From Botryllus schlosseri (taxonomy: Eukaryota), in assembly GCA_051294905.1 (NCBI GenBank), contig CM119372.1:38132001-38196000 (forward strand): a stretch of DNA of 64,000 bases, given 5' to 3'. The notes below the pieces were generated by a model, which made no database searches, was not told the origin of the DNA, and saw nothing but the letters and a program-made list of their open reading frames with translations. Below, piece after piece: positions 13,101 through 34,800 of the stretch. Position 1 is the first letter of the stretch. The number at the start of each line of letters is the position of its first letter. The position numbers were made by a program, and so were the translations under genes.

Positions 13101-13539
13101 TAGTAACAAGGCACCAAAAGTTTGCTGGAGCCCGCTGGGCTTTGAGGTGGAGGTCATTTTGCAGTGTTACAATTTCAATCTCTAACTGTTCAGCATCCAG
13201 ACATGACAGATTTCATTATACCGTACAGCAGGAACGATTACAGAAAGTTAGAAACATGGTACCAAACTGCGTTGAGTGTAAGAGAAGTTGTGTCAAAAGA
13301 TGCATTACGTAATGGGCATGAATATATTGGAAATCCGCTAGTACGTCACGGCTATCTGTTACCGAATAGTAATCTTGTTTAATACTTTGGCATTGTCCTT
13401 GGCGTCGAGCTACCATAGCGGAACCCCCGGCCATTTCAAGAAGACCGTGGATGGCATTCCGTCATGTCGCCTGTATAGGTAGTGCGCCGTATCCCACGTA
13501 TTCGATATCTTGTGATTCTTGTTATGTTCATGTCTACCA

Positions 13540-13857
13540 AACCTAATATCACGCAGCAGGTCACATCCGTCAATTTCTGCTCAGTGCCGCTCCTCTCCTT
13601 CGACATCGATCAACTATATCGTCGCGTATGAAACCAGCTCTGGATCAACTCCAGCATCAACGGCATTCCGTTGCCGACACAGTGGGACACTGGTGCACCC
13701 TCCGCCATGGTGGGATTGACTGGGTACAAAATTTTGGGCTCTCCGAAACTCTCAGCATACCATTGCTCTTTCGTAGCGAACGGTGACAAGCCTTTGAAAG
13801 TGAAAGGTATTTGCACTGTAACCGTGCAGGTGGGTTCCGAAGTTCGAGTTGGCTTAA
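13540..13857 (+). mobile_element. Gypsy LTR retrotransposon, 5' piece (aspartic protease N-half); 5' LTR and most of gag absent
   Basis: SINGIPLPTQWDTGAPSAMVG...KVKGICTVTVQVGSEVRVGL; continues in frame at 26047 (KLVVLDEHRGQNIFGFDW). 5' boundary approximate. Confidence 0.85.
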
Positions 13858-14629
13858 AGGAGCACTGCACTCAAAAAATGATGTGGTCTCAAATTGAAGG
13901 GCAAAACGAAAAAATATTTTTGGCCGCAGCCGTTTTCTTCAGAACGCCACCGTAATGGAGCTGCAATTTATTGAAATTTCCAGAAACACATCCGGCTGCA
14001 GCTGTCGCGGCTCCGGGTCATTTCTTAACCCGTTACATGGCACGATGACTTCATCGTCGCACTTGCTCGGCGCGATTAGGCAGTCACGCAGAGGACGAAC
14101 TTTAGATAGTTGTCAGTCGATGTTGTGAAGGACTCATGTCTTGCACACCAAGGCGGCGCTCAACGTACGGTGTTAGAAGTCAGGATTTGTGTCTGAAGCT
14201 TGTCATGACTCTATAGTCTATAGTATTTGCCAGTTAACTGATACTGAGATGCCATTACAGTTGTATATTGATGCAAAGCTATATTGATACAGCTGTCATT
14301 TTCAAGATGTAATAATGATGCACAGTACACAACCTTCGGAGTAGAGGTCTTGTGGAAGAGACAGACACTGGATATTTTGCATCATTTACCCATGGCATAG
14401 CAACTATTTTGATACGGTCCAGTTTACTTGTTCAAGACACAGATGTATAGATGGTCAACACGAAAATATCATTGTTTCATTGTCATCAAAGTTCCAATAT
14501 TGTTGTGGAAATTTTTATCGTTACATTGTTTTTCTCATTTTCACTAACGAATCTTCTGTCTCCATCAGTTCATTCATGCAATTCCTTTGACACGTAGATA
14601 ACGTAAAATTTGTTAAAATTATTAATGGT

Positions 14630-14925
14630 ATGGAAGAAGATCTTGTTGATGAATGAACTTCTGATGAAGATATAGATAGAAGATTTCGATGATATCACAA
14701 TATTTGGTGAGAGCCTGCCGTATCAATTCGAGGCACAATATTCAGGGAAGGAATTCGCCGGTCTTGTTGCAACTCTAGAAGCACAAACTCAAGTATTGCA
14801 CCTGTGTTTCTTGAATGCAATTTATCAATCTCATTGTATTGGTCAAAGAAATCGTCAGAAAACCAGAGTCAACTTCGGACACTTGACAATGAATGGTGCA
14901 GTTGCTTTAACTGTGAACAGAAAAA
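14630..14925 (+). pseudogene. Remnant of a KolX / P2X7-C-terminal-like cysteine-rich ORF
   Basis: Acidic N-terminus, LPYQFEAQYSGKE, then RTLDNEWCSCFNC, disrupted by a stop and frameshifts; lies inside the Kolobok-type element. Confidence 0.5.
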
Positions 14926-15797
14926 CTGGAATAATTGGAATAATAGCAATCAACCTGGCCCTGGTCCTGGCAGAAGGCTTTCTAACGAACTGTGATTGAT
15001 AACACTGCGGCTCTGCTATATAAGTCGAAATCAGTACAGCGAACGGCAACTGTTTGCATTCTTATTTATTAAAAATTCAATTTAATAATAAAAGAAACAT
15101 CCGAGGACTATATAGCCAGGGTAGGGTATTACAACGGGGCAGTCAGGCAGTGGAAGAATGAAATTGAGCTAGTAAGCTACGCAGCACTGCACATGCCATA
15201 CAACCCGAAGATGTATGTATCTCAGTCACGTTCTAGAACCAAGTTTTTAAAGTCAAACTTTTTTTGTCTATCAAAGATTTCAATGCTTTGAAACTGGGAG
15301 ATCCACATTGCAACCATCTAGTTCTTAGGCACTGATCCCCATCCTTGTCCATAGTAGCAAGTCTTCCATACCTTTCTTCTCACCCAGAGACACCAACTTT
15401 TTTTTCAGTCCTGAGAAATGGTTAGTCAGGCAAAAGAAGATTCAAATAATATCAGTATTCAGTTACCTTTGCAGACATGCCACACAGCAAACTGTTGATT
15501 GATTGATGGATATGGCACTTTCGTCTTAGTGCAATTTCAGAAGGAATTTTATGAAGAGTATGCGATGCGTCATTCCTTTTGACTTCACACGATGTAACGG
15601 CACAACTTGTCGATGTCATTGCATTTTTTAATAATGTCAATGTATATTCTATATACTATTACGAAGACTCTGGGTAGAGCAAGACAATACCGTAGACCAG
15701 TGCTTTTCAACCTTTTTGAGCTCCATTCGCACTTTTTTTGACAATTTAATTCGCACCAGCCAGCTGGAATTTATTACACAAAAAGAAAATGAAAAGC

Positions 15798-15965
15798 TTA
15801 TCACTTTTGTATTTGTAGGTCTTCCTGTAGATACAGAGCGTCATTATTTCACATTCAGCGTGTCGTATTGTTGATTAATCAAATATCACTTTTGTATTTG
15901 TAGGGCCTGTAGGTACAGAGCGTCATTATTTCACATTCAGCGTATCGTATTGTTGATTCATCAAA
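15798..15965. repeat. Tandem duplication of an ~84-bp unit
   Basis: TATCACTTTTGTATTTGTAGG...TTGTTGATT(A/C)ATCAAA occurs twice. Confidence 0.85.
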
Positions 15966-16202
15966 TACTAAAATCACTGCAGTAGAAAAATCACGGATAT
16001 CGCACTTCCGCTGTTCTCAAGGTATTCGTTGCTTTTTATGGGGGTATCGTGCAGTGATTTCTTTCGAAGCTTAAAGGGCGAACCAATGAACAATATCACT
16101 TTTCCACTAAATCGACGTGTGAATGTGTGCCGAAATTCCAATACTTTGCATCCAAATCAACACTGGCATCGCCCACTATTACCTACAAGGTAGGGTTATC
16201 AT

Positions 16203-16417
16203 GGTTGCCAGTGAACTCGGCCCTTGGTGAATTCGGCCTCACAAACTCTTCCCTCAGGCTTATTAATATTTTCACCAATCACTTGATAATAATATTATTA
16301 GTTTAATGATTCGCTATAATACAAAATTTCCCGAGGGCCGTATTCACAGAGGGCTGAGTTCACTGAAGGCCGAGTTCGTGAGGCCGTATTCACCGAGGGC
16401 CTAGTTTACTGGTAATC
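16203..16417. mobile_element. MITE with internal GGCCGAGTTCAC-like repeats
   Basis: Imperfect TIR GGTTGCCAGTGAACTCGGCCC/GGGCCTAGTTTACTGGTAATC; perfect 8-bp TSD GTTATCAT. Confidence 0.85.
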
Positions 16418-17961
16418 GTTATCATATTTTGGATTCGGGACAGGAGGACACTTATTCAAAATTTTCAGAAATAGAATAGTGGATCATGTAGAATCCTGGA
16501 AAATGATAAATCAGACTCCGTTGTCGGTCGACTGAAAAAAAGTCAACTTTCTAGCTCAACTCCGGAAATAGTTTTCCTTTAACACTTAACATTGGTTGAC
16601 TATTTGTTTGAAATTCTTTTCATTCGCACAAGTACGAACCGTCACACAGGTTGAAAAGATACCCTTATCTTATGATTCTCCAACCTGAATGCGAAACCAA
16701 TTATGATCGCTCTGAATTTTGAAATGTTCAGAGGGCACACTGATTGGTGATGGTAATGTTTTATCAGGGTTGTAACCAAGTCACATGGTTCAGAGTCACG
16801 AGTCAATCTTACTTTTGTGGTATTGACTCGAGTCAAGTCGAGTCATTTTCAATTCATCACCGAGTCGAGTCCGAGTCCAAGTCACCGTTTAAAGGGTCAA
16901 GTCCGAGTCATAGTGTTATGACTATAGTCGAGTCCAAGTCACTGCATTGAAGTCATGTTCAACTCATGTTTCAATCCTGAATTAGCTTATAGCTTATAGA
17001 GAATCAACGAATTCACGTCTATAGATACCAGCTGATAGGGAATCATCAGATGCGTGTTTATGTAGAGGTACAGTTTTTCTTTCACATTATCAGGTGGTTG
17101 ACTAAACAAAAAGGTCAGCTTTCCTGCTCAGCTCCCGAAATAGCCGCCAGAGCCTTACTACTATGAGAGAAAATTTTGGATTAATTACAAATAGAGATTT
17201 TCGAATTTTACCGGCTACCTCATGATATTGTTATATTGTGTAAAAATATGATTCATAGCAAAATTGGCTCAATTCCAACTAGAAAAGGAGAATTTATTAG
17301 AGTAGAATATTTTGGATATGAAAAAATAGTCGGCTTACTACTAGTATGTAATTATATTAAATGAAAGAATTTCTCACTAAAAACACTCCATTTATTTTCA
17401 AAAATAAAATTTTCTCCTCTCATATCATTGATTCAACTTTTTAAAATTAAGCCAGATTCAGTGTTATTTTTATGCACCATAACAAGTAGCGCACTAAGTA
17501 AAATAAAAAAGAAGTTATTTTTGAACAGCCCTATTGTACAAACATCACATAACATTAGCCATTCGTTATTACTCACGTGCTCAATGCACATACCTAACAA
17601 AACGTCAAATGGACGGAGGCCGGAGGGTATTGTGTGTTTTCACAGACAGCAGATCAAATCGTTGCGCTGGTGAACTTAATACAGGAATTGACAAGTATTT
17701 TTTAACCACATTGAAGTGCATCGCATACTCATTCCTTCTAGTCGCTCAAAAATGCAAAGAATCATCGCCTTTAAATCTACACATGAGCTTATCAGTCTCT
17801 TCCAAGTACTTGACCATCTGAGTCATTGCATTGACTCTAATTGAACTTTGCTTCTATTATTTGCTTGTATAATTGAAAAGTCTTGAGTACGATACTTTGA
17901 TTGCGGAGGATTTATTACCTCTTCATCACTGGATGATTTTGTACAATGCATTACTACTATG

Positions 17962-18418
17962 TGAAGTCGCGATTTCGGACTTCAAGAGCCATAAACATCA
18001 CGGTTCAATAAACCTTGTATGACCTTTGTGACGTAACTGTTATATAGTTCACTGCCGTTCAGTTTCGCCCTCGTTGCCTGCTTTGTATCAGTTGCTAATA
18101 TTTCGACTATCAATCTTATTCAATCGTATTTACATCGCAATTTTTATAGATCCTAAAATAATTATTATGAATAGTCTGAATCGAAATTTGTAACTGTCCT
18201 CAAGGAAACACCGTCAAGTAAGTATATATTGATTTATCCGGTACTAAACAATTTGTGTTAATTCGCTGTGTATTAATGCTTTCAGAAAACCGTTTTTCGT
18301 CTGTGTAAAATAAAATCCAACGAAGCAGGCAGAAACGCGTCATCTTGGGGTGTTGGATAGGACAGTTATATCTCTATTGTGTATACGTGGAAGTTTCCAC
18401 CCCTCTTTCGCGGCTACG
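17962..18418 (+). repeat. BEL/Pao 5' LTR
   Basis: TGAAGTCGCG...GGCTACG; direct repeat of 24828-25284. Confidence 0.95.
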
Positions 18419-18485
18419 TAAAGTTTTTTGACGTATTCCATCAACAAGTGCACCAATCAACAAAGAAAACTCAACTGTCATTGTC

Positions 18486-21400
18486 ATGGATTTCAACAAC
18501 CAAACAAAAGATCCTGATCTGGATGTTACACAGAGATGCGAAGAAGACAACAAAGTCACCAAAACAAAAGACGAACCAAAGTCTTCAAGGTCTCATGGTG
18601 CCAGATCAAAATCATCAGTTCAAACGAGATCCATGTCAAAGGTTTTAGAGCACAAATACTTGAAACCAAAAAGTTCAAGCAAATCAAGTTCAAGTCATCG
18701 GTCATCAACAGGTACCGGTACTTCTACATCAAGTCATTCAACTAAATCTCGCTATAGTGAAATGAATGTTGAAAATGTCGTAAATTATCATCGGAAACTG
18801 CAAGAAATAAGCTCTGCACGAGCAAAACAGGATATTGAAGATATCCAGGCTTCAATGAACACTGAAATACAATCAATTCAAAATCAAACTGCTTTGGCCC
18901 GAGCCAATCTTCAAGAACAAAAAAAGAAGTTAGCAGAAGATCTACGAAAGAAACTAGACGAAGAAAAGAGGAAGTTGGAGGAAGAACAGAGGAAGTTGGA
19001 GGAAGAGCAGAGGAAGTTGGAGGAAGAAGAACAAGAACTACAAAGACGGCAAAATCAACAATGTGAATTGATTAAACAAAGGATGCAGCAAAATGCTGAC
19101 GAAACAGCTCGCCGTGTAAGACGAGAACATTTGCAAAATACATGTGAACTAGAACTAGAACTCACTAGACGTGGTGTATCAACGCTAAGTTCACCTCAAC
19201 TGACAGCGACAGATCTGCAGCCATCTGAGAACAGGAGCCTGGCTCCTCAAATAAGCAACGTTCCGGAACAGCAACTACAACAAGCCAGTGCAACTATTCA
19301 ACCTACGAACAATGTAATAACTTCAATTGCTGAAGCGTCTGCAAGTGTTGCTCCAAATGTAACTCCGTCGATATCTTCGAATATTTCATACGCAGGTGTG
19401 GCTATTCCTTTTAATAGCATGTCTCACAGTTCTCGCCAAATGTCTAATGTTGTAGGCCTAAGTGAGAATGTATGTGTGCGTGAAAGATCTAGTAATTGTG
19501 TGACTGCTCGTTTGGACGCATGCATTGCACCCAAAAATCAATCGCCTGTAATTGATGCCGAAAATAGTCGCCTTGTAGCACCTCCCATGATTGATACACA
19601 AATAACTACTAAATTGCCTAGTTCCTTTGCATCTGGTAGCGTACAACCCTTTGTGCCAGCTAATTCAAATCAAGCAGCTACAGCAGGCTGCGCAGTTCAA
19701 ACAGCTGCAAACTATGATCTCAATGTAAAGCCTAACCAACCGACAAACTTGATTCAATGTGAGAATCCGTATGTCATTCACCAGGTTAAACCTAGTGATC
19801 AAATTGTCCCATTAAAGTTGGAACCAAAATGTTTTAGTGGCGACCCAATTGAATTTGATACATTCAAGGAAATGATAAATGCTACTTTGAATCGTCAGCC
19901 ATGGACGCAAAAACAGAAGTTGATGCATCTTTTGCAATACACCCGAGGTATTGCCAATACTTTTGTTAAAGCTTGTGAAGATATGGAAAACTGCTTTGAT
20001 GAAGCTCTTGCGGTATTGAGAGACAATTTTGGTCAACCATTCCAAATAAGTGACCGCTACATAAACACTGTTATAAATGGCTCGAAACTCGTAGAAGGTG
20101 ACAACGATTCTCTCCTCTTATTTCATGCATCGTTAACCGCTTGCACCAATAAGTTGACCAAATTTGGAAGAATTCGTGATGTTTCACGCTCTATGGTTGA
20201 ACAAATTGCCGAGAGACTTCCCCCTTCTTGGCAGCCTGGTTGGAGAACCTTAGTGGCGGAGGTCACTTTTGACCTGAAAACCGAACTGACTGTTGAACAT
20301 GTAAATGACTATGTTCGCCAGAAAATTAGAGAAATCACTAGTAAATATACCAACCCTAATCATGAAATATCCAAGAAGCAAGTGACGGGTGTATTCAAAA
20401 CTGGCAAACCCAAGGCATCATTCAGCACACAAGTTGTGACTCCAACATTGGAACTTTGTTTCATGTGCAACGAAAAGCATTTCTTGAATCAATGTGTCCA
20501 GTTCCGCAAAATGCAGTATCCTGATCGCGTTGAATTCGTCAAAACCAAAGGGCTCTGCTTCAAGTGTCTAAAGTCGGGACACTTCGGAAAAGCATGCAAA
20601 CGCATTCAAGCTTGCATAAGGCCTGGTTGCAAAGGCAATCATACAACACTTCTTCACCCACCTGAAGAAAAGATAAAAGAGGTTGCTAACAAAACCTTGG
20701 ATTCAGCAAATGAACAAATTGAAGGCCAAGGCAAAATTTCTGATTCAAAAGAAGCTACCTCTTTCTTCAGTGCTTCCTGCGATGACAATGAATATGATGA
20801 TGATGAATGTGTTACTTTGAATGTAGTCTTGGCAAGACTACGGATCGTTGGCACTGACGAGTACATCGCCACTTTGGCATTAATTGATAATGCGAGCAAT
20901 TGTTCATTCATATCTGAAGAACTCGTGAAACTACTCGGTCTTGCTGGGCCCGAGCGAAACGTAACTTTCCAAACAATCGAACCATCTAAAAATACCAAGA
21001 AGTCAACCATTGTTCGTGGTTTAGAGATTTCTGATTACGAGGGATCAGAATACGTACCTCTGAAGTCACTGATATCTACAGAGAAAATCGCTCTGGACAA
21101 CGACCTGCGGCCAACACAAAGTGATGTACATCAATTTCGACAATTTGAAGATATTCCAATCCCAGATCTTTCTGGAGACATCGGTCTGCTGATTGGTAAA
21201 AACAACCCCAAAATTCATAAGCCTCTGGAAACTATATATGGACCTGAGGATTACTTCGCAGTGAAAAGTGCCATCGGATGGATGTTTACATGCCCAAAAC
21301 AATCCGAACCTTTCAAACCTCACTCCTATTTTATTCAAACCAATCCAAACCCTTTGTGCACGATGTGTCACGATGATGTCAATTCCATAGCAAATGACAA

Positions 21401-24400
21401 AACTGAACTCTCTGTAAATGATAAACTATTTATGGAAAAGGTGTCATCGACAATCCTACTTGACTCGAACGGGCACTACCAAATGGAATTACCATTGAAA
21501 CATCCGGACTTAACACTGCCCGACAACAAGCATCAAGCGAAACAAAGAATCAATTATCTGCAGAAAAGATTCCAAAAGGATCCAAAGTTCTTTGATGAAT
21601 ACAAAGTTTTCATGTCTGACATGATCACAAATGGATATGCTGAGAAGGTTTACGATGATGGGCCAGTTGGTAAAACCTGGTATCTGAGCCATCACGGGGT
21701 GTATCACCCTGAAAAGAAGACTATCCGGGTTGTTTTTGATGCCTCTGCGAAATTCAATAATCTGGCGTTAAACGACCTTTTGTTACAAGGGCCAGACCTA
21801 ACGAACAACCTTGTTGGGGTTTTATCGCGCTTTCGCAGAAATGAAGTTGCGATCCAAGGTGACATTCGATCAATGTTTCACCAGGTTAAGGTTGATGAGT
21901 GTGATAGAGACCTGTTACGCTTCCTGTGGTGGAAGGATAATGACCCAAACCAACAACTTGAAACGTACCGCATGACTGTGTTTTTATTTGGGACTGTGAG
22001 CAGCCCTAGCTGTGCCAACTTTGCTCTACGAACTGTCGCTGAAGACAACAAAAATGCCTATGACATTGATGTCATAAATGCAGTTCAAAGGAACTTCTAC
22101 GTTGATGATTTTCTTGATTCCTGTGAGGATACTTCTGCTGCAATTCGTCGTGTGGAAGATGTCAGCTCTCTGCTAAGCAAAGGTGGATTTGAACTGACAA
22201 AATGGGCAAGCAATTGCAGAGAAGTACTGGCAGCAATACCGGAATCAAACAGAGCCAAAAACCTGAAAAATATTGACTTGTTAACTGATGAGCTACCGAT
22301 GGAGAAGACATTGGGGCTTGCGTGGAATATAGAAGATGATTCGTGGTGCTTCCGCGTCAAAGAAAAACACAAACCTTGTACCAGAAGAGGAATTCTGAGT
22401 ATCGTGAACTCAATTTTTGATCCGCTGGGAATGGCTCAGACTATAGTGCAACCAATGAAGGTATTGATGCAGCACTTATGCAAAAATAGCTACAATTGGG
22501 ATGACCCGTTACCTGAAGAAGCCAGAAAGATTTGGTGCGACTGGTTATCTCAACTACCGATGCTTGAAAACTTTACGATTCCAAGATGTTTCAAACCGTC
22601 AAAGTTTGGACAGGTGACAAGAATCGAACTTCACCACTTCTCAGATGCCTCTGAGTTGTGCTATGGTGCAGTATCTTATCTGAGATATGTGAATGATGCA
22701 GGTGAGATTCACTGTTCCTTTGTTTGTGGAAAAACAAGACTCGCCCCCATTAAAGGTTCTACCATTCCGAGAATGGAGTTGTGCGCTGCAACAATATCTG
22801 CCAGTAATAACAAATTTCTGCTAAAAGAGCTGGACCTGCCTATTGACGATTCATACTTCTGGACTGACAGCACAACTGTTTTGCGATATCTCACAAACAA
22901 AGACAAAGCTTTCAAAACCTTTGTTGCGAACAGAATCAATATGATCAAAGAGTCTTCAGAATTATCGGACTGGAGGTATGTGCCTTCAAAACAAAACCCT
23001 GCTGATATTGCTTCTCGGGGCCAGACTGTTTCTGAATTCTTGACTTGCGACATGTGGAAATTCGGTCCAGAATTCTTGTGGAAAGATTCTTCGGAGTGGC
23101 CTCAACAACCAACATTTCTAGAGGAGTTGTCTGGTGATGACCCAGAAATCAAAAAGCCAAACAAATTGTGTTTTCTTACAATTACCACTCCAAATTCGGT
23201 TCTTGATGAACTCATCTCCAAGATCTCATGCTGGACCCGACTGAAAAGGGTGCTGGCATGGGTCTTGCGCTTCAGAAATAATCTTCTTGCCAAAGCGAGA
23301 AACAAACAACCAAATGCAAAGCTGACAAACGAGGCATTGACTTTAATTGAAGTTAAAGCTGCTGAAGAAATGCTTATACGTCATGAGCAAACAAAGCACT
23401 TCTCTGAAGAAGTAGAAAGACTGAAGAGTGATGAACGAATCAAAAGATCTAGCCCGATCTACAAATTGCTACCATTTCTGGATAATGGGACCCTCCGGGT
23501 TGGAGGCAGAAATCAAAATGCTCCTATTGGTTACGACTCAAAACATCCGATAATCATCCCAAAAAAGAGTCCAATTGCAGAATTGGTCATTCGAGATGCT
23601 CATGTTTCATGTGGCCACAGTGGCCGGGAATATGTTATTGCCCAAGTCAGAGAAAGATTTTGGATTGTCACAATCAATTCCAAAGTACGATCCGTTCTGA
23701 AAAATTGTGTCTCATGTAGGAAACGTCAACGAAAACCAGAATCTCAACAAATGTCTGATCTACCATCTGATAGATTAACTCCGAATGATCCGCCGTTCCA
23801 CGCAGTTGCGGTTGACTGTTTTGGTCCGTTCTTGGTAAAGCGTGGTAGATCTGAATTGAAACGATATGGCGTTTTGTTCACTTGCCTTACCACTCGCGCT
23901 GTCCATATTGAAATTGCGAATAGTTTGGACACTGATTCTTTCATTATGGCACTGCGTCGCTGTATTGCACGCCGTGGACAAATCAGTTTGATACGGTCAG
24001 ATAATGGCAGCAACTTCACATCTGGTGAGAAGGAGTTGAGACAAAACATTTTAACTTGGAATCAAACAAAAATACAAGATTTTTTGGTGCAAAAACAAAT
24101 AACTTGGTTGTTTCAGACCCCTTGTGCATCCAATCATGGTGGTGTATTTGAAAGACAAATTCGAACAGTGCGAAAGATTTTGGGTGCTTTGTGTGATGAA
24201 TAAATGTTGTCTGATGAATCTCTATTAACATTGATGTGCGAATGTGAATCAATTATGAATAATCGCCCCATTTCAACTGTGTCTAGTGATCCACATGATT
24301 TGACCCCAATAACCCCTAACAGTCTGTTGTTGTTGAAAGATAAACCCATGCTACCACCTGGTGTGTTTAATGTCAAAGATGTTTACTCCAGAAAAAGATG

Positions 24401-24695
24401 GAGACAAGTCCAGTACTTGGCTGATCTTTTTTGGACAAGGTGGAAGAAACAATACCTTCCACTACTTCAGATTCGCCAAAAATGGAATGAAAATAAAAGA
24501 AATATCACTGTAGGTGATGTCGTGCTTGTTTTGGATCAAAACCTACCTCGTAACATGTGGTTGCTAGGTCGTGTGATTGAAACCCTACCTGACAAGTCTG
24601 GGTTGGTGAGAAGCGTGAGGGTCTTTACCAAAACGAATATTTTGAAACGACCCATAAACAAATTGGTGCTTCTCTGTGAAGCTCCTGACTGTTGA
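18486..24695 (+). CDS. BEL/Pao gag-pol polyprotein (gag, three Zn knuckles, protease, RT, RNase H, integrase) with one in-frame TAA at 24201-24203
   Basis: FSGDPIEF gag motif; CFMC..H....C, CFKC....H....C, C....C...H....H knuckles; ALIDNAS protease; FYVDD RT; HHFSDAS/WTDS RNase H; HHCC + DCFGP/RSDNG/FERQI integrase; same frame resumes at 24204 with the WKKQYL...RPINKL C-terminal domain. Confidence 0.95.
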
Positions 24696-24827
24696 GAGCT
24701 GAAATTTGTTACAGTTTTTTGAGTATTGTAACCTTTCGTTTCTTTGTGCTTTTATTGTGAATTTGCAGTTGTGTAAAAATTGCCAAACTTGCATAAATTC
24801 AAATTTTCAATTTTTAAAGGGCCAGGA

Positions 24828-25284
24828 TGAAGTCGCGATTTCGGACTTCAAGAGCCATAAACATCACGGTTCAATAAACCTTGTATTACCTTTGTGACGT
24901 AACTGTTATATAGTTCACTGCCGTTCAGTTTCGCCCTCGTTGCCTGCTTTGTATCAGTTGCTAATATTTCGACTATCAATCTTATTCAATCGTATTTACA
25001 TCGCAATTTTTATAGATCCTAAAATAATTATTATGAATAGTCTGATTCGAAATTTGTAACTGTCCTCAAGGAAACACCGTCAAGTAAGTATATATTGATT
25101 TATCCGGTACTAAACAATTTGTGTTAATTCGCTGTGTATTAATGCTTTCAGAAAACCGTTTTTCGTCTGTGTAAAATAAAATCCAACGAAGCAGGCAGAA
25201 ACGCGTCATCTTGGGGTGTTGGATAGGACAGTTATATCTCTATTGTGTATACGTGGAAGTTTCCACCCCTCTTTCGCGGCTACA
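24828..25284 (+). repeat. BEL/Pao 3' LTR
   Basis: TG...CA, 457 bp, followed by TSD CTATG. Confidence 0.95.
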
Positions 25285-26046
25285 CTATGTACCCATGTCT
25301 GTTGTTTTTACGGCCGCCTATCTGATATCAGACTATAGTGCAACAAAAGCTGTGGTGACAAATAGCAATGTCGGCAGAATTCGTCAGATGCGTTGATCTA
25401 GCCGTTACGATTCGCAAATTTCTTCGTCTTCGAGTCATATAAAATGAACCAAGTCAATGACTTGGGTCAAGTCATGCGTAATGACTCGAGTACAAGTCGA
25501 GTCAATCCAAATATTGACTCGAGTCGAGTCAGGTCATTTTCCCATTTCAAGAAAATGACTCGAGTCAAGTCGAGTCACAAAAAAATCGTGACTGGAGTCT
25601 GACTCGAGTCGAGTCATGACTCGAGTCATTACAACCCTGTGTTTTATACATAACATAAGAATAGGACATGATCTATTCCTGCTCTCAAGAAATAGAATAC
25701 ACTAGCCCAGATTAAGAGAAAAATCTCCTGACTGAACATCCTCCGTGGAACGGCGTGTAAGACATATTTCCTTCATAACATTGGCTGGCAACCATCTAAA
25801 TTTCGTCCTCTGCGTGACTGCCTAATCGCGTACAGCAAGTGCGACGATGAAGTCATCGTTCCATGTAACGGGTTAAGAAATGACCCGGAGCCGCGACAGC
25901 TGCAGCCGGATGTGTTTCTGGAAATTTCAATAAATTGCAGCTCCATTACGGTGGCGTTCTGAAGAAAACGGCTGCGGCCAAAATTTTTTTTCGTTTTGCC
26001 CTTCAATTTGAGACCACATCATTTTTTGAGTGCAGTGCCCCTTTAA

Positions 26047-28918
26047 AGTTGGTAGTTCTCGACGAACACCGTGGGCAAAACATTTTTGGTTTCGATTGGA
26101 GCGATGCTTTCTCCGTGACCGCGAAGGGAACGTCTGCTTTGGATGCTATTTCCTCGCAGAAGGTCAAATCGCAATCATGTAATACTATTGACATTTGTGA
26201 TTCGAACGACAAATTGGTAGCTTTTCAGTCCAAATTTCCCTCCGTTTTCTCTAATGTGCACCAAGACAACGGTGACAATTCATTTGAAACCTAATGCCAA
26301 GCCCGAATTTAACAAGCCACGTCCTTTGCCGTTAGCAAGGCAAATCGCTGTTCAAACCGAATTGAATAGATTAGTCAATCAAGGTATCCTCGAACCAATC
26401 AATTACAGTGATTGGGCAGCACCAATTGTTGCCGTCACTAAATCTAATGGATCAGTACGCATTTGTGGTGACTTCAAAGCATTGAATCAACAAATTCAGA
26501 TAGATCAACATCCCCTGCCCTCCTTAGATGAAATTCTTCACAAGTTACAGGGTGGTTGTATTTTCACGAAAATTGATCTTGCCGATGCTTATTTTCAGCT
26601 AGAATTAGATGATGATGCGAAGAATTTGTGTGTCATCAACACGCAATTCGGTCTATTCCGCTATCGACGCATGTGTTTCGGAGTCGCATCTAGTCCCGCA
26701 AATTTTCAACGCTGTCTTGATGCCATGATCGCCGGCTTACCCGGTGTTGCTAGTTTTATCGATGACATAATCGTTACTGGCATCGATGAACGCGATCATT
26801 TTCGCAACTTATCGCTACTCTTTGAGCGCCTCACCGAATCCGGTTTCACCGTCAACTTCGTTAAATGTGAATTTTTCAAAAGTAGTATCGAGTACCTTGG
26901 TCATATAATCGACAAGGACGGCAAACGCCCGTCTAACAAATCCGTTGAAGCAATCAAACAGTTGCCTAAACCTCAGGATGTTCGCCAGCTACAGGCATTC
27001 CTGGGCAAAGTCAATTATTATCGCATGTTTATTCCTAATTTCACGAATAAAGCCGCTGCCTTGTACCGTCTTCTTCAAAAAGACGCGGAATTCATTTGGA
27101 ATACGGACTGTGACGCAGCTTTTCGCATTCTCAAAAACGACGTATTCGACGCTACGCAGTTAGCTCATTATGATGTAAACAAGCAGCTCATTTTGTCAAC
27201 TGATGCTTCTCAATTCGGAATCGGCGCTGTCCTCTCAATCGAGCACAATGGCGAAGAGAGACCGATCGCGCACGCATCGAAAACACTTTCAGATTCCCAA
27301 AAATCCTACTCTCAAATTAAGAAGGAAGCTCTGTCAATCATTTACGGAGTCACTAAATTTCGTCAATTCTTGTATGGTAGAAAATTTACGCTCGTAACGG
27401 ACCACAAACCGCTTTTAGCTATTTTCTCGCCGGACAAGAAAATTCCCGTGATTACAGCGCAACGCTTACAGCGATGGGCACTAACGCTCATAGCTTACCA
27501 ATACGATATTCGCTATAAACCAACTAATCAGCACGGAAACGCCGACGGTTTATCTCGCCTACCAAAGGGTCCAGACTCTGAGTTTGACGAAATGGAAATT
27601 CGTGAAAACGCGGAGATCGTTCACGCTATTAATATGGCATTCGATGGCTTACCGTTAACTCGCAATGAAATTCGCGACGCGACGCTGAAAGACAAAACCA
27701 TGGAACTAGTGAAATTATCTGTCACTCATGGAAATTGGAATCCAAAGACGCACATTAATGATTTTTCTTGGTTTTCGACTCGCAAACATTCGCTTTCTCT
27801 GCACGAAGACATAGTCATGCTGCTCAATATTGATGGTTTTCAGTGCGTAGTAATTCCGCAGTCACTTCGCTCGCGAGTCTTATCATTGCACGAAGGACAT
27901 TGGGGTATCGCGAAAATGAAGCAGATGGCTCGACGTTACATCGCATGGCCTTCCATTAATCGCGACATTGAAAATCTCGTTAAGAGTTGCGACGCTTGCC
28001 GTAAGGTAATGAAAGCACCTGATCGTCAGTATCGCGAATGGCCTAAAACGTCTGAAAGCTTTGAACGAATTCACTTGGATTTCGCAGGTCCAATAAACCA
28101 TAAGATGTTTCTTGTCATCGTCGATGCGCATTTGAAATATCCTTTCGTTAAATTGATGAATGTCGGTTCTAACACAACCTTATGCGTGGTCAACGCTTTG
28201 AGGGAAGTATTCTCTATCGAAGGCTTGCCCATAACAATTGTCACGGATGGCGGGCCGCAATTCACATCGAATGAATTCGATACGTTTCGCTCTAATTTGG
28301 CAATCCGCCATATCGTATCACCGTCTTTTCACCCTGCCTCGAACGGGGAAGCGGAGCGTTTCGTCCAGACTTTGAAAGCTGGATTAATAAAAAATTGCGA
28401 CGGGGAAAAGATCTCAACTTCGCGCTCCAAACGCTTCTTGCTACGTACCGATTTGCACCGCACCCGGGCATAGACTGGAAAACGCCTGCCGAGATTTTAC
28501 ATGGTCGACAGCCGCGCAATTTGTTAAGTTTGTGCTCGCCCTTCGACAAATCGAAACCCATTACGCCTGGACAACCAGTGACTCATTTCGAGATTGGTTC
28601 CTCGGTTTACGCTCGCAGTTACCGAAGCGGACCAAAGTGGGTTGCTGGCGTGGTGACGGAAATACTGGGGCGTGTTGTGTACATCATGAAACAGATCATG
28701 GGTATTGGAGGAGGCACAAAAACCAACTCCAACCACGCTTGATTTCCACTAGTCATGATACAGCCACACAGGAAGTTGCTCAGCCGCAACAGTCACAAGC
28801 TGAGCAACCATTGGTCAGACATACGGCACAACGTCCTGTAGCTAATCCTGCTCGAACGTCGGGCAGACGTTATCCGGTTAGAATAAGGAAGCAAACTGAT
28901 TTCTATCGGCCAACGTAA
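26047..28918 (+). pseudogene. Gypsy (Mag-like) pol: protease C-half, RT, RNase H, integrase; frameshifted near 26254, 28410 and 28690
   Basis: WAAPIV, RICGDFK, IDLADAY, SFIDD, TDASQFGIGAVL, LVTDHKPL, LHEGHWG..C..C, DFAGP, VTDGGPQF, NGEAERFVQT in Gypsy domain order. Confidence 0.93.
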
Positions 28919-29443
28919 AGTACCTTGTACCAGGGTTGTAATGACTCGAGTCATGACTCGACTCGAGTCAGACTCGAGTCACGATTATTTTATGACTCGA
29001 CTTGACTCGAGTCATTTTCTTGAAATGGGAAAATGACGCGACTCGACTCGAGTCAATATTTGGATTGACTCGACTTGTACTCGAGTCATTACGCATGACT
29101 CGACCCAAGTCATTGACTCGGCTTATTTTATATGACTTGAAGATGAAGAAATTTGCGAATCGTAATGGCTAGATCAACGCATCCGACGAATTCTGCCGAC
29201 ATCGCTATTTGTCACCACTGCTTTCGTTGCACTTGTCTGATATCAGATATGCCACCGTAAAAACAACAGAAAATGATACATAGTAGCAATAATGCATTGT
29301 AAAAAATCGTCCAGTGATGAAGAGGTAATAGATCCTCCGCAATTAAAGTACTCAAGACTTTTCAATTCTACAAGCAAACAATTGAAGCAAAGTTCAATTA
29401 GAGCCAATGAAATGACTCAGATGGTCAAGAGACTGATAAGCTC

Positions 29444-29660
29444 ATGTGTAGATTTGAAGGCGATGATTCTTTGCATTTTTGGGCGACTAGAAAGAATGAG
29501 TATTCAATGCTCTTCAGTGTCGTTCAAAAATGCTTGTCAATTCCTGCATCTAGTGCACTAGTGGAACGTGTATTCAGTAGATGTGGATTCATTCTACGGC
29601 CATGCCGCTTTAACATATCTGAGGATCTCCTTTCCACATTAGTATTTTGAGGTGTAACTC
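29444..29660 (+). pseudogene. hAT (Ac/ZBED1-like) transposase C-terminal dimerisation domain remnant
   Basis: DSLHFW...EYSML...CLSIPASSALVERVFSRCGFILRP.R..IS..LL.TLVF. Confidence 0.85.
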
Positions 29661-30700
29661 AGTGATTTGATCTGCTGTCTGTGAAAACACACAATGCCCC
29701 TCGTCCATTTGACGTTTTGTTAGGTATGTGCATTGTGCACGTGAGTATAATAATGAATCGCTAATGCTGTGTGATGTTTGTACAATATGGCTGTTCTAAA
29801 ATAACTTCTTTTTTATTTTACTGGGTGGTTACTTGATAAAATTGTTATGTTGCATAAAAGGAACACTGAATCTGGCTTAATTTGAAAACAAGTGGAATCA
29901 ATGATGTGAGAGGAGAATATTTTGGATTTGAAAATAAATGGAGTATTTTAGTGTGAAATCCTTTCATATAATTTAATTACATGGTAGTAAGCCGACTATT
30001 TTTTCATATCCAAAACATTCTACTCTAATAACTTCACTTTTTCTAGTTGGAATTGAGTCAAATTTGCTATGAATCATATTTTTCCACAATGTAACAATAT
30101 CATGAGATAGCCGCTAAAATTCTAAAATCTCTATTTGTAATTAGTCTAAAATTTTCTTTCATAGCATTGCTTTCTACTGGTTGGAATTGAGCCAAATTTG
30201 ATTTTTTAGGCAATCTAGCAATTTTAAGAAGTAGCCGGAAAATTTGAAAAAATGTTTTTGAACAGCCCCATTGTACAATTATTTATCCAATGCTGCAACT
30301 GCGATGTAGTCTGTAATGCAATTGGGAAAACCTTTTGTATAATCAAAAGGTATCTGTTCTGTTGTCACTGCACAATGCACATAGTTGCATGCACGTTTTT
30401 ACAGCATGCTGGCCTGTTGTAAATACCTCTACATAAACATGCATCTATGGATTCTCTATCAACTAGTATCTTGACGTGAATTTGTTGGTTCTCTATCAGA
30501 TAGTATGTAGACGTGAATTCGTTGGTTCTCTATCAGCTATTCGTGAGCTATCGTCGATGTGCTCATAATGAAAACTGAATGCTTGTATTGGTGATGTATC
30601 AGACTGACAAGAGAGATATTTGATTTTATGTTCTAAGATTAGTAAAGTTATATTTAGCATCGGTAAATGAGGCCAGGACCTGTCCGTTATCTGCCTAAAT

Positions 30701-32204
30701 CAGTGGTTCTTAACCTTGCTCCCAGCGCCCCCCAGGGGGCGCTGGCGATCTTGAAGGTGGGCGGAAACGCTCAGGGGGCGATATGGGGGGGCGCTGGAGA
30801 AAAATGGCTTCGCAGTAGATGATGTGGTGATAGGATATATCCTTAATGAGTATTCAGAGCAAATTAACACCGAAAACTTCGTTACATATAGCCTTCAAAA
30901 TACACATAGGTTTAATTGTCCATCGGTGCCTAAATGACTGACACCGAATGTTCCTGTCTTGGCAATCTGAACCCCAGAAGACGAATTCCATCTGGCAGGG
31001 AAAAATTATATGTCAGTGAAGAAATACCAATCTGAAATCGTGTGGGTCTTTAAGTTTAGTACGATTGAGCGACAGGGATATTCCTGTTGGGCGATATCCC
31101 CGTTGAGCGATTCTATATTTTTTGATATTGCAGACAGGGGGTCACGAAATAACATCATGCAACGAAGTCATACCAACGGGTTCGCCCGCCCGAATATGTT
31201 TAATTATTAGTAACGGGCCCTACAGTTTCCAAGAAACCTCACAATGTTCGCTTTAAGTTTTGATGAGTCTGCGCACACTCAACAACTCACTGCGCTGACC
31301 CTTGGACAACAGTGCGTAACGACTAAAAAAAGGTAATAACTCCGGATTTGTTGTGCGCAACGTAGATTGTCTGTGCGCAGTGACCGTGTCAGCACTGCGC
31401 TCGTGCGCAGCTTAGAGGGAACATTGCACCTCACTCAGCGCTACCGGTAAATTTGTTTACGTGAGCAGAGAGGGGATAAAAATTGATCTCAATTTACATG
31501 CAATTCCCGATGATATTGACCAATTCAATCATTAATTAGTGAAATTTTTCGCACTTCGCGCGAATAGGCAAGAATAGCTGCCTCAGTAAATGGACACCCA
31601 ATGTAGATACCTAATAGGCTATCAGCAAATAGCGGACAGCCTAATGGGGGTCTGGGAGTGAAGTCCCCCGGAAGTTTGGTTTATCACCCGATGGGGGCCA
31701 AGGACCAACGTTTTTTGTTTGGGGAGGGGGGCTGACGAAGTGCTGTTAGGGCCCTGGTAACGAATAATTGTACCTGTGGGCACGCCCGAATATGTTTAAT
31801 TATTAATTACGTGCCCTTTATTTTCCTATACAACAGCTCACTCAGTGCTTCTGTTAAATCTGATTACGTGCGCTGAGAGGATAAAAAGTTTATAGCGATT
31901 TATATATGTACTTACCCCCTATTCATGGAAAATTTTGGTACCTAGGGCGACCAGGCCACACAAACTTTGCTGACCATCAAAATCACGATATGGGGTTCGT
32001 GGGGGCGAAGCCCTCAGAAGTTCGGTTTATCACGCTATGGGTGCGCAAGGCAATCGATTTTAGGGGGGTTAACGAAGTGCTGTTACGGCCCTCCCTCTTA
32101 CTCATTGTCTTTATTACATTCCTTACAATATGAAGTTGGGGGGCGCTGGAGCACGATAATTTTTGAAAGGGGGCGCTGGAAGAAAAAAGGTTAAGAACCA
32201 CTTG
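30701..32204. mobile_element. Buster-type hAT MITE with composite cargo, nested in copy B; includes a small CAATGTTC...GAACATTG MITE at 31242-31426
   Basis: TIR CAGTGGTTCTTAACC/GGTTAAGAACCACTTG; perfect TSD GCCTAAAT. Confidence 0.85.
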
Positions 32205-32453
32205 GCCTAAATAAACACGTGCCAAGACTCTGATAGGGACAAAATGAGCATGTTTCGCAAACAAGGAATTCGATATCACCCAAGCAGGATTGAAAACATG
32301 AGTTGAACATGACTCGGACTCGAGTCTGTGATGAATTGAAAATGACTCGACTCGACTCGAGTCAAAACCACAAAAGTATGATTGACTCGTGACTCGGAAC
32401 CATGTGACTTGGTTACAACCCTGCCTTGTACCTTTTAACTTACAGGGGAGGAC

Positions 32454-32707
32454 TGTCATGTTCGTGCATTTTACGTTGGTATCGTTTGTCTCTTATTTGT
32501 CTAGGATTAGTAATTACCGCCAATCATTATTTCCTCGTGTGTCGTGCTTCGTATTTATACCCTGTGTTCTGTTGTCTCGTGGTCTTTCATTTAACTGCAC
32601 TCTGGATCGTGTCGCTGCCGTAAAGTTATTCTGCTGATAATATACTGATTTCATTTTGCAACCTCGTCGTATTGAGTTATTGTTCAAACAAGATCAAGAA
32701 CATAACA
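32454..32707 (+). repeat. Gypsy 3' LTR (254 bp)
   Basis: TGTCATGTTC...GAACATAACA, preceded by PPT AGGGGAGGAC (32444-32453). Confidence 0.9.
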
Positions 32708-32712
32708 ATGGA

Positions 32713-32748
32713 ATGGAGGCGTGGGTTCGAATCCCACTTCTGACACCA
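32713..32748 (+). other. DNA copy of the 3' 36 nt of mature tRNA-Leu including CCA (extended primer-binding site of the inverted LTR)
   Basis: ATGGAGGCGTGGGTTCGAATCCCACTTCTGACACCA: variable-arm end, T arm, acceptor strand and CCA; no 5' half. Confidence 0.88.
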
Positions 32749-32750
32749 AT

Positions 32751-33017
32751 TGTTATGTTCTTGATCTTGTTTGAACAATAACTCAATGCGACGAGGTTGC
32801 AATTAGAAATCAGTATATTATCAGCAGTATAACTTTAAGACAGGCGACACGATCCAGAGTGCAGTTAAATGAAAGAAAACGAGACAACAGAACACAGGGC
32901 ATAAATACAAGCACGACACACAAGGAAATAATGATTGGAGGTAGGCTAATTACTAGTCCTATAGAAATCAGGAGACAATTAGGAAACAACACTGAACGTA
33001 AATGCACGAACATAACA
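32751..33017 (-). repeat. Second, related Gypsy LTR in inverted orientation (267 bp)
   Basis: Minus strand TGTTATGTTCGTGCA...GAACATAACA, clearly homologous to but diverged from 32454-32707; followed by AT + TGGTGTCAGAAGTGGGAT. Confidence 0.9.
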
Positions 33018-33473
33018 GTAACCAAGTCATACCAACGGGTACGCCCGCCCGAATATGTTTAATTATTATTTACGGGCTCTACAGTTTCGAAGACACCTCA
33101 CTAAGCTATACCGGTAAATATGAGTAGAGAGGACAAGAAATTTGTAGCAATATATATGCAATTCCCGATCTTATTGACCGATTTATCATGAATTATCGAA
33201 AATTTTCGCGCATGGCGCTGGCTCACGAAATGGTACCACTACAACTTCGTGGTAAAAGTGAACAACGTGATGGGGGACGGACTGGATGCGGCCAAGTGGC
33301 TTTGAGAGTCGGATTTATACTCGATTTCAGCCTCACAATAAGTGGAAATAACAGGAATTTACGTGCCAGCCGGATTTTTTGGACTTTGATTTGGCAACCT
33401 GGATCGGGTTGGAGTCAGATTTCGAAATCTCTCGCTCATCTTTACACCCCACCGAAAGCAGGCTAGATCGCAT

Positions 33474-34800
33474 CAGGGCCGTAACTGCCGCACTCCAAAC
33501 CCCCCAACTGGGGGGGGGCGAGCTCGAAGGGGGCCCAAAATTATTTCCTGAATTAGCATAAATTATAGAGTATATTTTGAAAATTTGTGCAACTTTTTCA
33601 AAAATTTTTCGCGCTGGGCGCGATTTCAAGTTGCCAAATTTCTTTATTATTGGGTACTTTTCCCCCAAGAAAAAATACGCAACATTTATAGAAATGGGCA
33701 TATAAGCGTTGGCCATTACCGCGCCACGACGAACCAAGACGTATAAAATCTTAGACCATGCAATATGCGACTCCAAGAAGTGTGCCAGAACGATCGGCAG
33801 CGAGAAAACTTCGGCCGAAAGGTACTGCCCTTATACTGACCTAAAACTTCGTTAGGCTATATACAAATTACACATAGGTTTGATAGTCCATAGGCGCCTG
33901 AATGACTGGCGCCGAATGTCTTGGCAACCTGAACCTTAGAAGACAAATAACATCCAGCAGAGAAAAATTATATGGCAATGAAGAAATATCAATTTGAAAT
34001 CGTGTGTACTTTTAGTTTAGTACGTTTGGCCGATTCTATATTTTTTGATATAGCAGACAGGAGGTCACGAAATAACATCATGTAACCAAGTCATACCAAC
34101 GGGTATACGCCCGCCCGAATATGTTTATTTATTATTTACGGGCTCTACAGTTTCGAAGACATATCACTAAGCTATACCGGTAAATATGAGTAGAGAGGAC
34201 GAGAAATTTATAGCAATTTATATATGCAATTCCCGATCTTATTGACCGATTTATCATGAATTATCGAGAATTTTCGCGCATGGCGCTGGCTCACGAAACG
34301 GTACCACTATAACTTCGTGGTAAAAGTGAATAACAACGTGATGGGGGACGGTTTATCACCTAATGGAAGCCCATGACTCAAATTTTTTTGGGGGCCTGAC
34401 GAAGTGCTGTTTCGTTCCTGTCAACGGGTATACACCCGGAGATGTTTAACTATTATTGAGGGTTCCTGCCTTTTGAAACACACCTCCCTCAGCTCTACCG
34501 GTAAATCAGATTACGTGAGCAGAGAGAGGGTAAAAATTAATAGCAATATATATGCAATTCCCGATCATATTGACCGATTCAGACATGAATTATAGAATTT
34601 TCTTCTCGCTTCGTGCGGTCAGCCGAGTAAAGCTGACACACTAAACGGACACCCAATGAAGGTGTCAGGTAGCGGTAAACAGTGTAGAGCCTGAGGGGGG
34701 TCTGGGGGGCTTCGCCCCCCAGAAGTTAGGTTTATCACCCTGTGGGGGGCCCGAGACCAACGTTTTGGGGGGGGCCTGACGAAGTGCTGTTATGGCCCTG
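33474..34800. mobile_element. Non-autonomous element with CAGGGCCGTAAC ends and internal ~300-bp repeated units
   Basis: CAGGGCCGTAAC/GTTATGGCCCTG; internal unit (CCCGAATATGTTTAATTATT...GCAATTCCCGATCATATTGACCGATT) recurs at ~31150, 31780, 33018, 34083, 34420, 37250, 59910; left end also at 1-160 on the minus strand; no TSD. Confidence 0.65.

What the first reader, a model, noticed from the sequence alone, without database searches (positions are those of the whole stretch)
32454..33017. Two Gypsy LTRs joined tail-to-tail through a CCA-bearing tRNA-Leu copy twice the normal PBS length
Seen: 3' LTR (32454-32707), 5 nt, 36 nt of tRNA-Leu 3' end with CCA (32713-32748), AT, then an inverted complete LTR of a diverged sister copy (32751-33017) with no internal sequence. 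Known: eukaryotic tRNA genes do not encode CCA, and plus-strand strong-stop synthesis normally copies only 18 nt of primer, stopping at m1A58 (here position 32730). Inference: a fossil of an aberrant intermediate, an LTR plus tRNA copy that read through position 58 into the variable arm, integrated by its U3 end and joined to another element's end. It also creates a ~560-bp hairpin that could yield dsRNA against the family.
Basis: partly seen in the sequence, partly recalled or inferred. Interest (0 to 1): 0.7.

Follow-up and report, generated by a model that had tools for sequence, protein, structure and literature searches.

The report
Retrotransposon primer overshoot frozen as hairpin
A jumping gene's copying enzyme most likely ran past its normal stop on the tRNA that starts it, and the faulty piece was patched into the chromosome back-to-back with a dead relative, leaving a harmless-looking fossil of a known kind of copying error.

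Summary
The structure is in the sequence as described. LTR1 (32454-32707) is the 3' LTR of a decayed Ty3/Gypsy element (A) that can be traced back to 13520. LTR2 (33017-32751) is a sister LTR, 86% identical, followed by a CCA-ended tRNA-Leu copy of 36 nt, probably 38, where 18 is normal. In 120 public loci with this primer site, 115 of 121 matches stop at about 18 nt; 5 run on to 40-60 nt and 1 is a tRNA gene. Overshoot copies therefore recur and are not unique. LTR2 has the extent of an unprocessed plus-strand strong-stop DNA. Both of its junctions look like homology-guided repair: a slipped 5-nt repeat inside, a 12-of-13-nt look-alike plus a 263-bp flank duplication outside, and no target-site duplication. 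That fits capture by host repair better than integrase insertion of the U3 end. Still open: whether this family simply has a long primer site (A's own site is deleted and no sibling DNA was reachable), whether reads support the junction, and whether the hairpin is transcribed. Verdict: a new variant of known aberrant reverse transcription and integration products; moderate interest.

The parts
13520..13532 (+). Remnant of element A's left end: 12 of the first 13 nt of the LTR, abutting gag codon 302; the rest of the 5' LTR, the primer site and gag codons 1-301 are missing
   Evidence: reading it as the 5' LTR start is inference (both LTR ends share these first 10 nt)
13530..13857 (+). End of gag and first part of protease of element A
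   Evidence: tblastn with sibling protein P0001, residues 302 onward, 87%
13858..26042 (.). 12.2-kb insertion with ~290-bp terminal inverted repeats and TTAA on both sides, splitting A's protease; holds a hAT-like copy and a BEL/Pao element
26043..28918 (+). Rest of protease, RT, RNase H and integrase of element A, in several frames
   Evidence: Pfam; P0001 residues 405-1372, 96% over the main frame
28931..32423 (.). hAT-like composite inserted in A's 3' untranslated region, 8-bp target duplication (28923-28930 and 32424-32431)
32444..32453 (+). Polypurine tract and 2-nt spacer of element A
32454..32707 (+). LTR1, the 3' LTR of element A
32708..32712 (+). 5-nt spacer, an exact tandem copy of 32713-32717. 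Its first two bases equal the dinucleotide between LTR2 and its primer site and also the first two bases of A's left-flank pentamer; its last two may belong to the tRNA copy
   Evidence: read directly
32711..32748 (+). Copy of the 3' 36-38 nt of mature tRNA-Leu with CCA (on the - strand: the 18-nt primer site plus 18-20 nt of overshoot); A58 at 32730 copied without error; ends at the variable-arm loop
   Evidence: tRNA numbering counted by hand on the gene in L049
32749..32750 (-). Dinucleotide between LTR2 and its primer site
32751..33017 (-). LTR2, complete sister LTR with no internal sequence
33018..33280 (+). 263-bp copy of 34082-34351, starting exactly at LTR2's U3 end; its first two bases also equal the unprocessed U3 dinucleotide
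   Evidence: 8 substitutions in 263 and 3 indels
34066..34351 (+). Probable donor inside a host repeat: a 12-of-13-nt look-alike of LTR2's U3 end (from 34066), 4 nt, then the duplicated block

Best explanation
LTR2 plus the tRNA piece is an overshoot plus-strand strong-stop DNA of a sister element, captured by repair-type copying. Steps: (1) a Leu-primed Ty3/Gypsy RT made plus-strand DNA from the polypurine tract through the LTR and did not stop at A58, copying 36-38 nt of the primer (product shown; cause inferred, probably an unmethylated A58). (2) The extra tail cannot pair in the second strand transfer, so the piece was a dead end (established for HIV, PMC8599865). (3) A DNA 3' end at the U5 tip of element A primed on the tail through a 3-nt microhomology (32707-32709 equals 32712-32714), slipped once to give the 5-nt tandem repeat, and copied the whole piece through the U3 end (inferred). 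(4) The new end primed on a look-alike in a host repeat 1 kb away, copied 263 bp and rejoined the chromosome (duplication shown, route inferred). This happened either while A was integrating with one failed end or later at a break beside A; the data do not separate the two. The hairpin is a by-product; a function is not shown.
For: Primer-site geometry with CCA directly behind a complete LTR. Of 121 matches to this primer site in 120 public loci, 115 end at 18-24 nt, and the base opposite A58 is at chance among them (32 of 115, p 0.5-0.8); 5 run to 40-60 nt. L052 (57 nt) shares its LTR with L094 (18 nt), so overshoot and normal copies coexist in one family. L035 and L052 cross the anticodon loop without the intron seen in the L049 gene; L035 ends one base before G26; L041 mismatches at positions 58 and 57. 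LTR2 carries both unprocessed dinucleotides. No target-site duplication for A, for A plus LTR2, or for LTR2. Look-alike 4 nt from the outer junction, chance about 2e-5 per 10-nt window in base shuffles. PMC5041404 (Discussion and passages) describes failed viral ends extended by host polymerase onto viral DNA in either orientation and onto nearby host DNA, giving duplications of hundreds of bp.
Against: The family's normal primer-site length was not measured: A's own site is deleted and no sibling DNA was found. L035 has a 60-nt copy followed by gag, so a long site can sit on an element with internal sequence. The LTRs differ more (7.9%) than the flank duplication (3.0%; Fisher p 0.019), so LTR2 is not A's own LTR and two elements must have met. 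The inverted ends of the TTAA element inside A differ by 5.8%, which hints that A is older than the duplication (p 0.15) and weakens the single-event version. The slipped repeat needs only three bases explained, so it is weak evidence (about 1 in 50 by my arithmetic). A58 was copied without the mismatch that a methylated A58 often leaves. A precise end at CA is also the integrase signature.
Confidence: 0.62

Rival explanations
1. One reading: the overshoot cDNA (LTR-length, or full-length and later reduced to a solo LTR) was inserted by integrase at its U3 end into one copy of an older tandem duplication; the tRNA-tailed end was joined by repair next to A's end, deleting the DNA between.
For: LTR2 ends precisely at CA in the middle of a host repeat. 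The two bases after LTR1 equal the first two of A's left-flank pentamer, as if A had integrated normally and been cut 2 nt into its target duplication. One-ended integration with flanking deletion is described in PMC5041404.
Against: It needs the second junction to fall by chance within 3-5 nt of a same-family LTR end, and the first to fall 4 nt from a 12-of-13 look-alike. The left half of the supposed tandem copy was not found in the window.
Confidence: 0.15
2. The family has a long (36 nt or more) tRNA-complementary primer site as an inherited trait, and a deletion or replication template switch joined a chromosomal 5' LTR with part of its primer site to A's 3' LTR. The overshoot would then be ancestral, not an accident at this locus.
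For: L035 carries 60 nt of tRNA complement followed by gag, and its sibling L077 carries 40 nt followed by other sequence. Lentiviruses and MusD keep complementarity to position 22 (PMC8599865, 10.1101/2025.05.12.650695; passages). Homology at the outer junction could also guide a chromosomal template switch.
Against: Only 1 of about 100 upstream-sequence clusters shows a long site followed by gag. The break would have to leave no base of internal sequence. The simple nested version fails: no gag of a host element lies left of A and there is no shared target duplication.
Confidence: 0.17
3. Assembly or library chimera.
For: No reads were laid on the junction; the region is made of repeats.
Against: The arms differ by 20 substitutions and 7 indels; fold-back chimeras give near-identical arms (general knowledge). 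The junction has biologically exact geometry.
Confidence: 0.04

Closest known systems
Read-through of plus-strand strong-stop past m1A58 (HIV-1 and M-MLV RT; PMC8599865, passages read)
   Same: RT copies primer tRNA beyond 18 nt when A58 does not stop it; the product cannot complete strand transfer.
   Different: There it is shown in vitro and in mutant cells and said to block integration; here the product is fixed in a genome, from an invertebrate-type Gypsy element, and also passes position 54.
Aberrant one-ended retroviral integration (HIV-1, ASLV; PMC5041404, abstract, Discussion and passages read)
   Same: A failed end is extended on viral DNA in either orientation and on nearby host DNA, leaving a duplication instead of a short target repeat.
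   Different: In what I read the appended viral DNA is not a tRNA-tailed strong-stop piece of a second element; their junction tables (supplement) were not seen.
Provirus-host junctions that keep the terminal dinucleotide and part of the primer site (PMC2797772, passages read)
   Same: Unprocessed U5 end, primer-site sequence and microhomology at a repair-made junction; other end normal.
   Different: 2-15 nt of primer site, never beyond 18 in the passages seen; no inverted second LTR.
Reverse-transcribed mature tRNA beside an LTR (tRNA-Gly at an HIV provirus, PMC12220202 parts 1-3 of 7 read; it cites tRNA-Gly between M-MLV LTRs, original not seen)
   Same: CCA-bearing tRNA DNA abutting a U5 end, with loss of flanking DNA.
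   Different: There a non-primer tRNA of 67 nt; here the element's own primer in primer-site geometry.
Ty3/Gypsy elements labelled K02A2.6-like; the clade name Mag is recalled, not tested
   Same: Single Gag-Pol frame in sibling P0001, two Cys/His knuckles, PR-RT-RH-IN order, short LTRs, Leu primer site.
   Different: Typical members stop at an 18-nt site.

Membership tests
Ty3/Gypsy LTR retrotransposon (element A) | Domain order protease-RT-RNase H-integrase | tested here: met
Ty3/Gypsy LTR retrotransposon (element A) | LTR with TG...CA ends and polypurine tract before the 3' LTR | tested here: met
Ty3/Gypsy LTR retrotransposon (element A) | Two LTRs, primer site and target-site duplication | tested here: not met
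   5' LTR reduced to 10-13 nt, primer site absent, flanks not duplicated: a decayed or aberrant copy
Mag clade | RT phylogeny with named Mag references | not tested
   Only K02A2.6-like source labels; the paper search for the clade gave nothing
Plus-strand strong-stop overshoot product | Complete LTR from the purine-tract cut, then spacer, then tRNA copy with CCA beyond position 58 | tested here: met
Plus-strand strong-stop overshoot product | Parent family has a normal short primer site | not testable with these tools
   No genome held; no sibling DNA found; no reads laid
Plus-strand strong-stop overshoot product | RT signature of a modified template (mismatch at 58, stop at a modified base) | tested here: inconclusive
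   Window copy has no mismatch at 58 and ends at the variable-arm loop; L041 and L035 show such marks, one case each
Integrase-made insertion (LTR2) | Target-site duplication | tested here: not met
Integrase-made insertion (LTR2) | End joined precisely at CA | tested here: inconclusive
   Precise at CA, but the next two bases also equal the unprocessed dinucleotide
Hairpin-RNA or endo-siRNA locus | Long pairable arms | tested here: met
   Perfect runs of 37, 32, 22 and 21 bp; arm duplex about -360 kcal/mol
Hairpin-RNA or endo-siRNA locus | Transcription through both arms and small RNAs from them | not tested
   No RNA data examined
tRNA gene | Full cloverleaf | tested here: not met
   ARAGORN 0 genes; only the 3' 36-38 nt are present

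The most novel reading that the evidence does not exclude
Overshoot strong-stop DNAs are a regular, undescribed class of genomic fossil in animal Gypsy elements (a few percent of Leu primer sites). Their end points and mismatches record the modification state of the primer tRNA in the germ line, some become inherited long primer sites, and when one is copied onto a sister's U5 end it creates, in one step, a family-specific hairpin that can seed silencing.
Probability: 0.3. Interest if true: 0.68.

Novelty: new variant of a known kind. Interest (0 to 1): 0.45.

Why it matters
Whether and how often RT passes m1A58 in living cells has been argued mainly from in vitro work and HIV mutants (PMC8599865). 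Fixed genomic copies make it countable: end positions and mismatches across many copies would give in vivo stop frequencies for each tRNA modification. This locus also shows that such dead-end pieces can reach the chromosome without normal integration and can build an inverted repeat against their own family. As a single locus it is debris; its value is as a clear example of the class.

Tried and rejected
No whole genome is held. LTR searches in the window found no further copy beyond the 13-nt remnant. Sibling DNA was not found: pol against viral contigs, P0001 against prokaryote genome contigs and viral contigs, an LTR 31-mer in viral contigs; the single metagenome scan went to the primer-site survey. 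Sequencing runs: 24 listed, 20 hold part of the stretch, best share 0.62, no RNA holder listed; none was laid, and the stretch is mostly repeats, so this is no evidence on the junction or on expression. Rfam microRNA matches are all below gathering score and reflect only the hairpin. A bacterial promoter scan of LTR1 is irrelevant and empty. Rejected: nested insertion of A into a host element behind its primer site (no gag left of A, no target duplication); integrase insertion of A plus LTR2 as one unit (flanks differ); tRNA gene; LTR2 as A's own LTR (more diverged than the flank duplication). No clean target duplication was found for L077 or L052 either (a 4-nt match 13 nt away at one trial start of L077 is taken as chance). 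The scoring reference was one base short at the splice and capped lengths at 48; one search corrects it. ARAGORN was run on 60 of the 120 loci. Ten paper searches found no description of genomic LTR copies with primer overshoot; most subscription papers are not in that library. PMC5371799 and PMC7472051 gave nothing relevant in the passages seen.

Full report
Observation. The window shows two LTRs tail to tail: LTR1 at 32454-32707 (+) and LTR2 at 33017-32751 (-), 86.2% identical. Between them lie 43 nt: a 5-nt spacer, a CCA-ended tRNA-Leu 3' part and a dinucleotide. Read on the minus strand this is LTR2, two bases, an 18-nt primer-binding site and 18-20 more bases of tRNA complement. The host's tRNA genes were not available, since no genome is held. 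No tRNA gene is called in the window. The inverted repeat extends two bases past each LTR at both ends, so LTR2 has the extent expected of an unprocessed plus-strand strong-stop DNA: spacer, LTR, spacer, tRNA copy.

Element A. LTR1 follows a purine tract and belongs to a Ty3/Gypsy element. Its pol frame (26221-28470) carries RT, RNase H and integrase domains. An unnamed 1372-residue protein, P0001, is 96% identical over 96% of that frame and maps the element: gag end and protease start at 13530-13857, a 12.2-kb TTAA-flanked insertion, the rest of pol to 28918, a 3.5-kb hAT-like insertion with an 8-bp target duplication, then purine tract and LTR1. Gag residues 1-301 have no match in the window. 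Directly before codon 302 stand 12 of the first 13 bases of the LTR, which I read as the remnant of the 5' LTR after an internal deletion. A's own primer site is therefore gone. The named relatives are labelled K02A2.6-like at 40-49% identity; the clade name Mag is recalled and was not tested.

How long is this primer site normally? 107 of 121 have a CA within 6 nt upstream. 115 end at 18-24 nt, and the base opposite A58 agrees with tRNA in 32 of 115, which is chance. One match, L049, is an intron-bearing tRNA-Leu gene followed by CCA (identified by eye; ARAGORN did not call it). Five run on: L077 40 nt, L119 about 42, L041 45, L052 57, L035 60 (5 of 120, 95% interval 2-9%). Nothing lies between 25 and 39. 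Four of the five start directly behind CA; L119 sits behind only about 12 LTR-like bases. L052 shares its upstream sequence with L094, which has an 18-nt site and then a gag-like frame (by eye; not found by tblastn). L035 shares its LTR with L077 and is followed by gag (E 1e-12). L035 and L052 cross the anticodon loop without an intron, L035 ends one base before G26, and L041 mismatches at 58 and 57 (numbering counted by hand; that G26 and A58 are RT-blocking modified bases is recalled for G26 and read in PMC8599865 for A58). The loci come from different hosts and include redundant samples (about 100 clusters among 119), so the rate is rough. Overshoot is thus real and recurrent. L035 also shows that a long site can sit on an element with internal sequence, which keeps the family-trait rival alive.

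Junctions. Inside: the spacer 32708-32712 repeats 32713-32717 exactly, and the last three bases of LTR1 plus dinucleotide (32707-32709) equal 32712-32714 in the variable-arm loop. Priming on three bases, a short extension and one slip would give this. Only three bases need explaining, so the evidence is weak, and the two bases after LTR1 could equally be the remains of A's target duplication. Outside: LTR2 ends at CA in the middle of a host repeat. The 263 bp that follow duplicate 34082-34351 (8 substitutions, 3 indels), and the donor has a 12-of-13 look-alike of LTR2's end 4 nt before the breakpoint; such a match is expected about 2e-5 times per 10 nt in base-shuffled sequence, though the motif is a standing feature of that repeat family. 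No target duplication pairs A's left flank with either right flank. PMC5041404 (Discussion read in full; passages) reports that a viral end that integrase fails to insert is extended by host polymerase on viral DNA in either orientation and on nearby host DNA, leaving duplications of hundreds of bases. PMC2797772 (passages) shows junctions that keep the terminal dinucleotide and 2-15 nt of primer site, with microhomology. The locus fits this pattern with an overshoot piece as the first template.

Against a single event. LTR1 and LTR2 differ by 7.9%, the duplication by 3.0% (p 0.019), so LTR2 came from a sister element. The inverted ends of the TTAA insertion inside A differ by 5.8%, a hint that A is older than the duplication (p 0.15). 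Capture at a later break beside A is therefore about as plausible as capture during A's integration.

Hairpin. The arms alone pair in perfect runs of 37, 32, 22 and 21 bp, with a duplex energy near -360 kcal/mol on either strand. A transcript through both arms would form long dsRNA, but no RNA data were examined and the nearest clear gene starts 6.4 kb away.

What is known and what is not. Overshoot past m1A58 is established biochemically, and retroviral genomes keep complementarity to about position 22 (PMC8599865; 10.1101/2025.05.12.650695; passages only). Reverse-transcribed mature tRNA beside an LTR is reported for HIV (PMC12220202, parts 1-3 of 7). 10.1101/2022.09.25.509424 (passages) links the primer-site annealing step to alternative end joining. 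Capture of Ty1 cDNA at breaks is recalled, not read. Ten searches found no paper on genomic overshoot copies in LTR retrotransposons; the library lacks most subscription papers, and no supplements were read, so junction tables there could hold similar cases. An earlier AI note on this genome (e1-7804496) reports a 55-nt case and dozens of similar ones; I did not check it and do not count it as support.

Verdict. The structure is real in the assembly; the tRNA piece is almost certainly an RT copy of the mature primer beyond A58; that it is an accident of this copy and not a family trait is likely (about 0.8) but untested; repair-type capture fits the junctions better than integrase insertion. 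Read support, family primer-site length and expression remain open. New variant of a known kind, interest 0.45.

Noticed in passing
window 17962-25284: Young BEL/Pao element: 456-bp LTRs differing at 2 of 456 bases, 5-bp target duplication, a 1923-residue frame and a 163-residue frame after one stop. Earlier notes on this genome suggest self-priming in this group; its primer site was not examined.
   Followed up: partly
window 13520-32707: Four-level nesting: Gypsy element A holds a TTAA element (13858-26042), which holds a hAT-like copy (16765-25639), which holds the BEL/Pao element; a second copy of the hAT-like element sits in A's 3' region in the opposite orientation.
   Followed up: yes
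window 39424-63634: A run of host genes on the + strand, each apparently within one open frame (PB1-kinase, RRM protein, RRN3, phosphatase, GTPase, DTW, TMEM70-like): an intron-poor, same-strand cluster. The PB1-kinase frame gave no C1 domain hit at E 0.001.
   Followed up: no
L035 501-560: LTR followed by 60 nt of spliced tRNA-Leu complement ending one base before G26, then gag: a candidate inherited long primer site.
   Followed up: partly
L041 501-572: 45-nt tRNA copy with mismatches at positions 58 and 57, followed by a 28-nt repeat of the sequence just upstream of the primer site.
   Followed up: partly
L119 78-125 and 301-342: About 42 nt of tRNA complement behind a short LTR-like end, in front of a pol-like frame; upstream lies a threefold short repeat that resembles the tRNA variable arm.
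   Followed up: no
window 34695-35400: RT-domain fragment (weak RVT_1 hit), by eye LINE-like, beside the repeat that donated the duplication.
   Followed up: no
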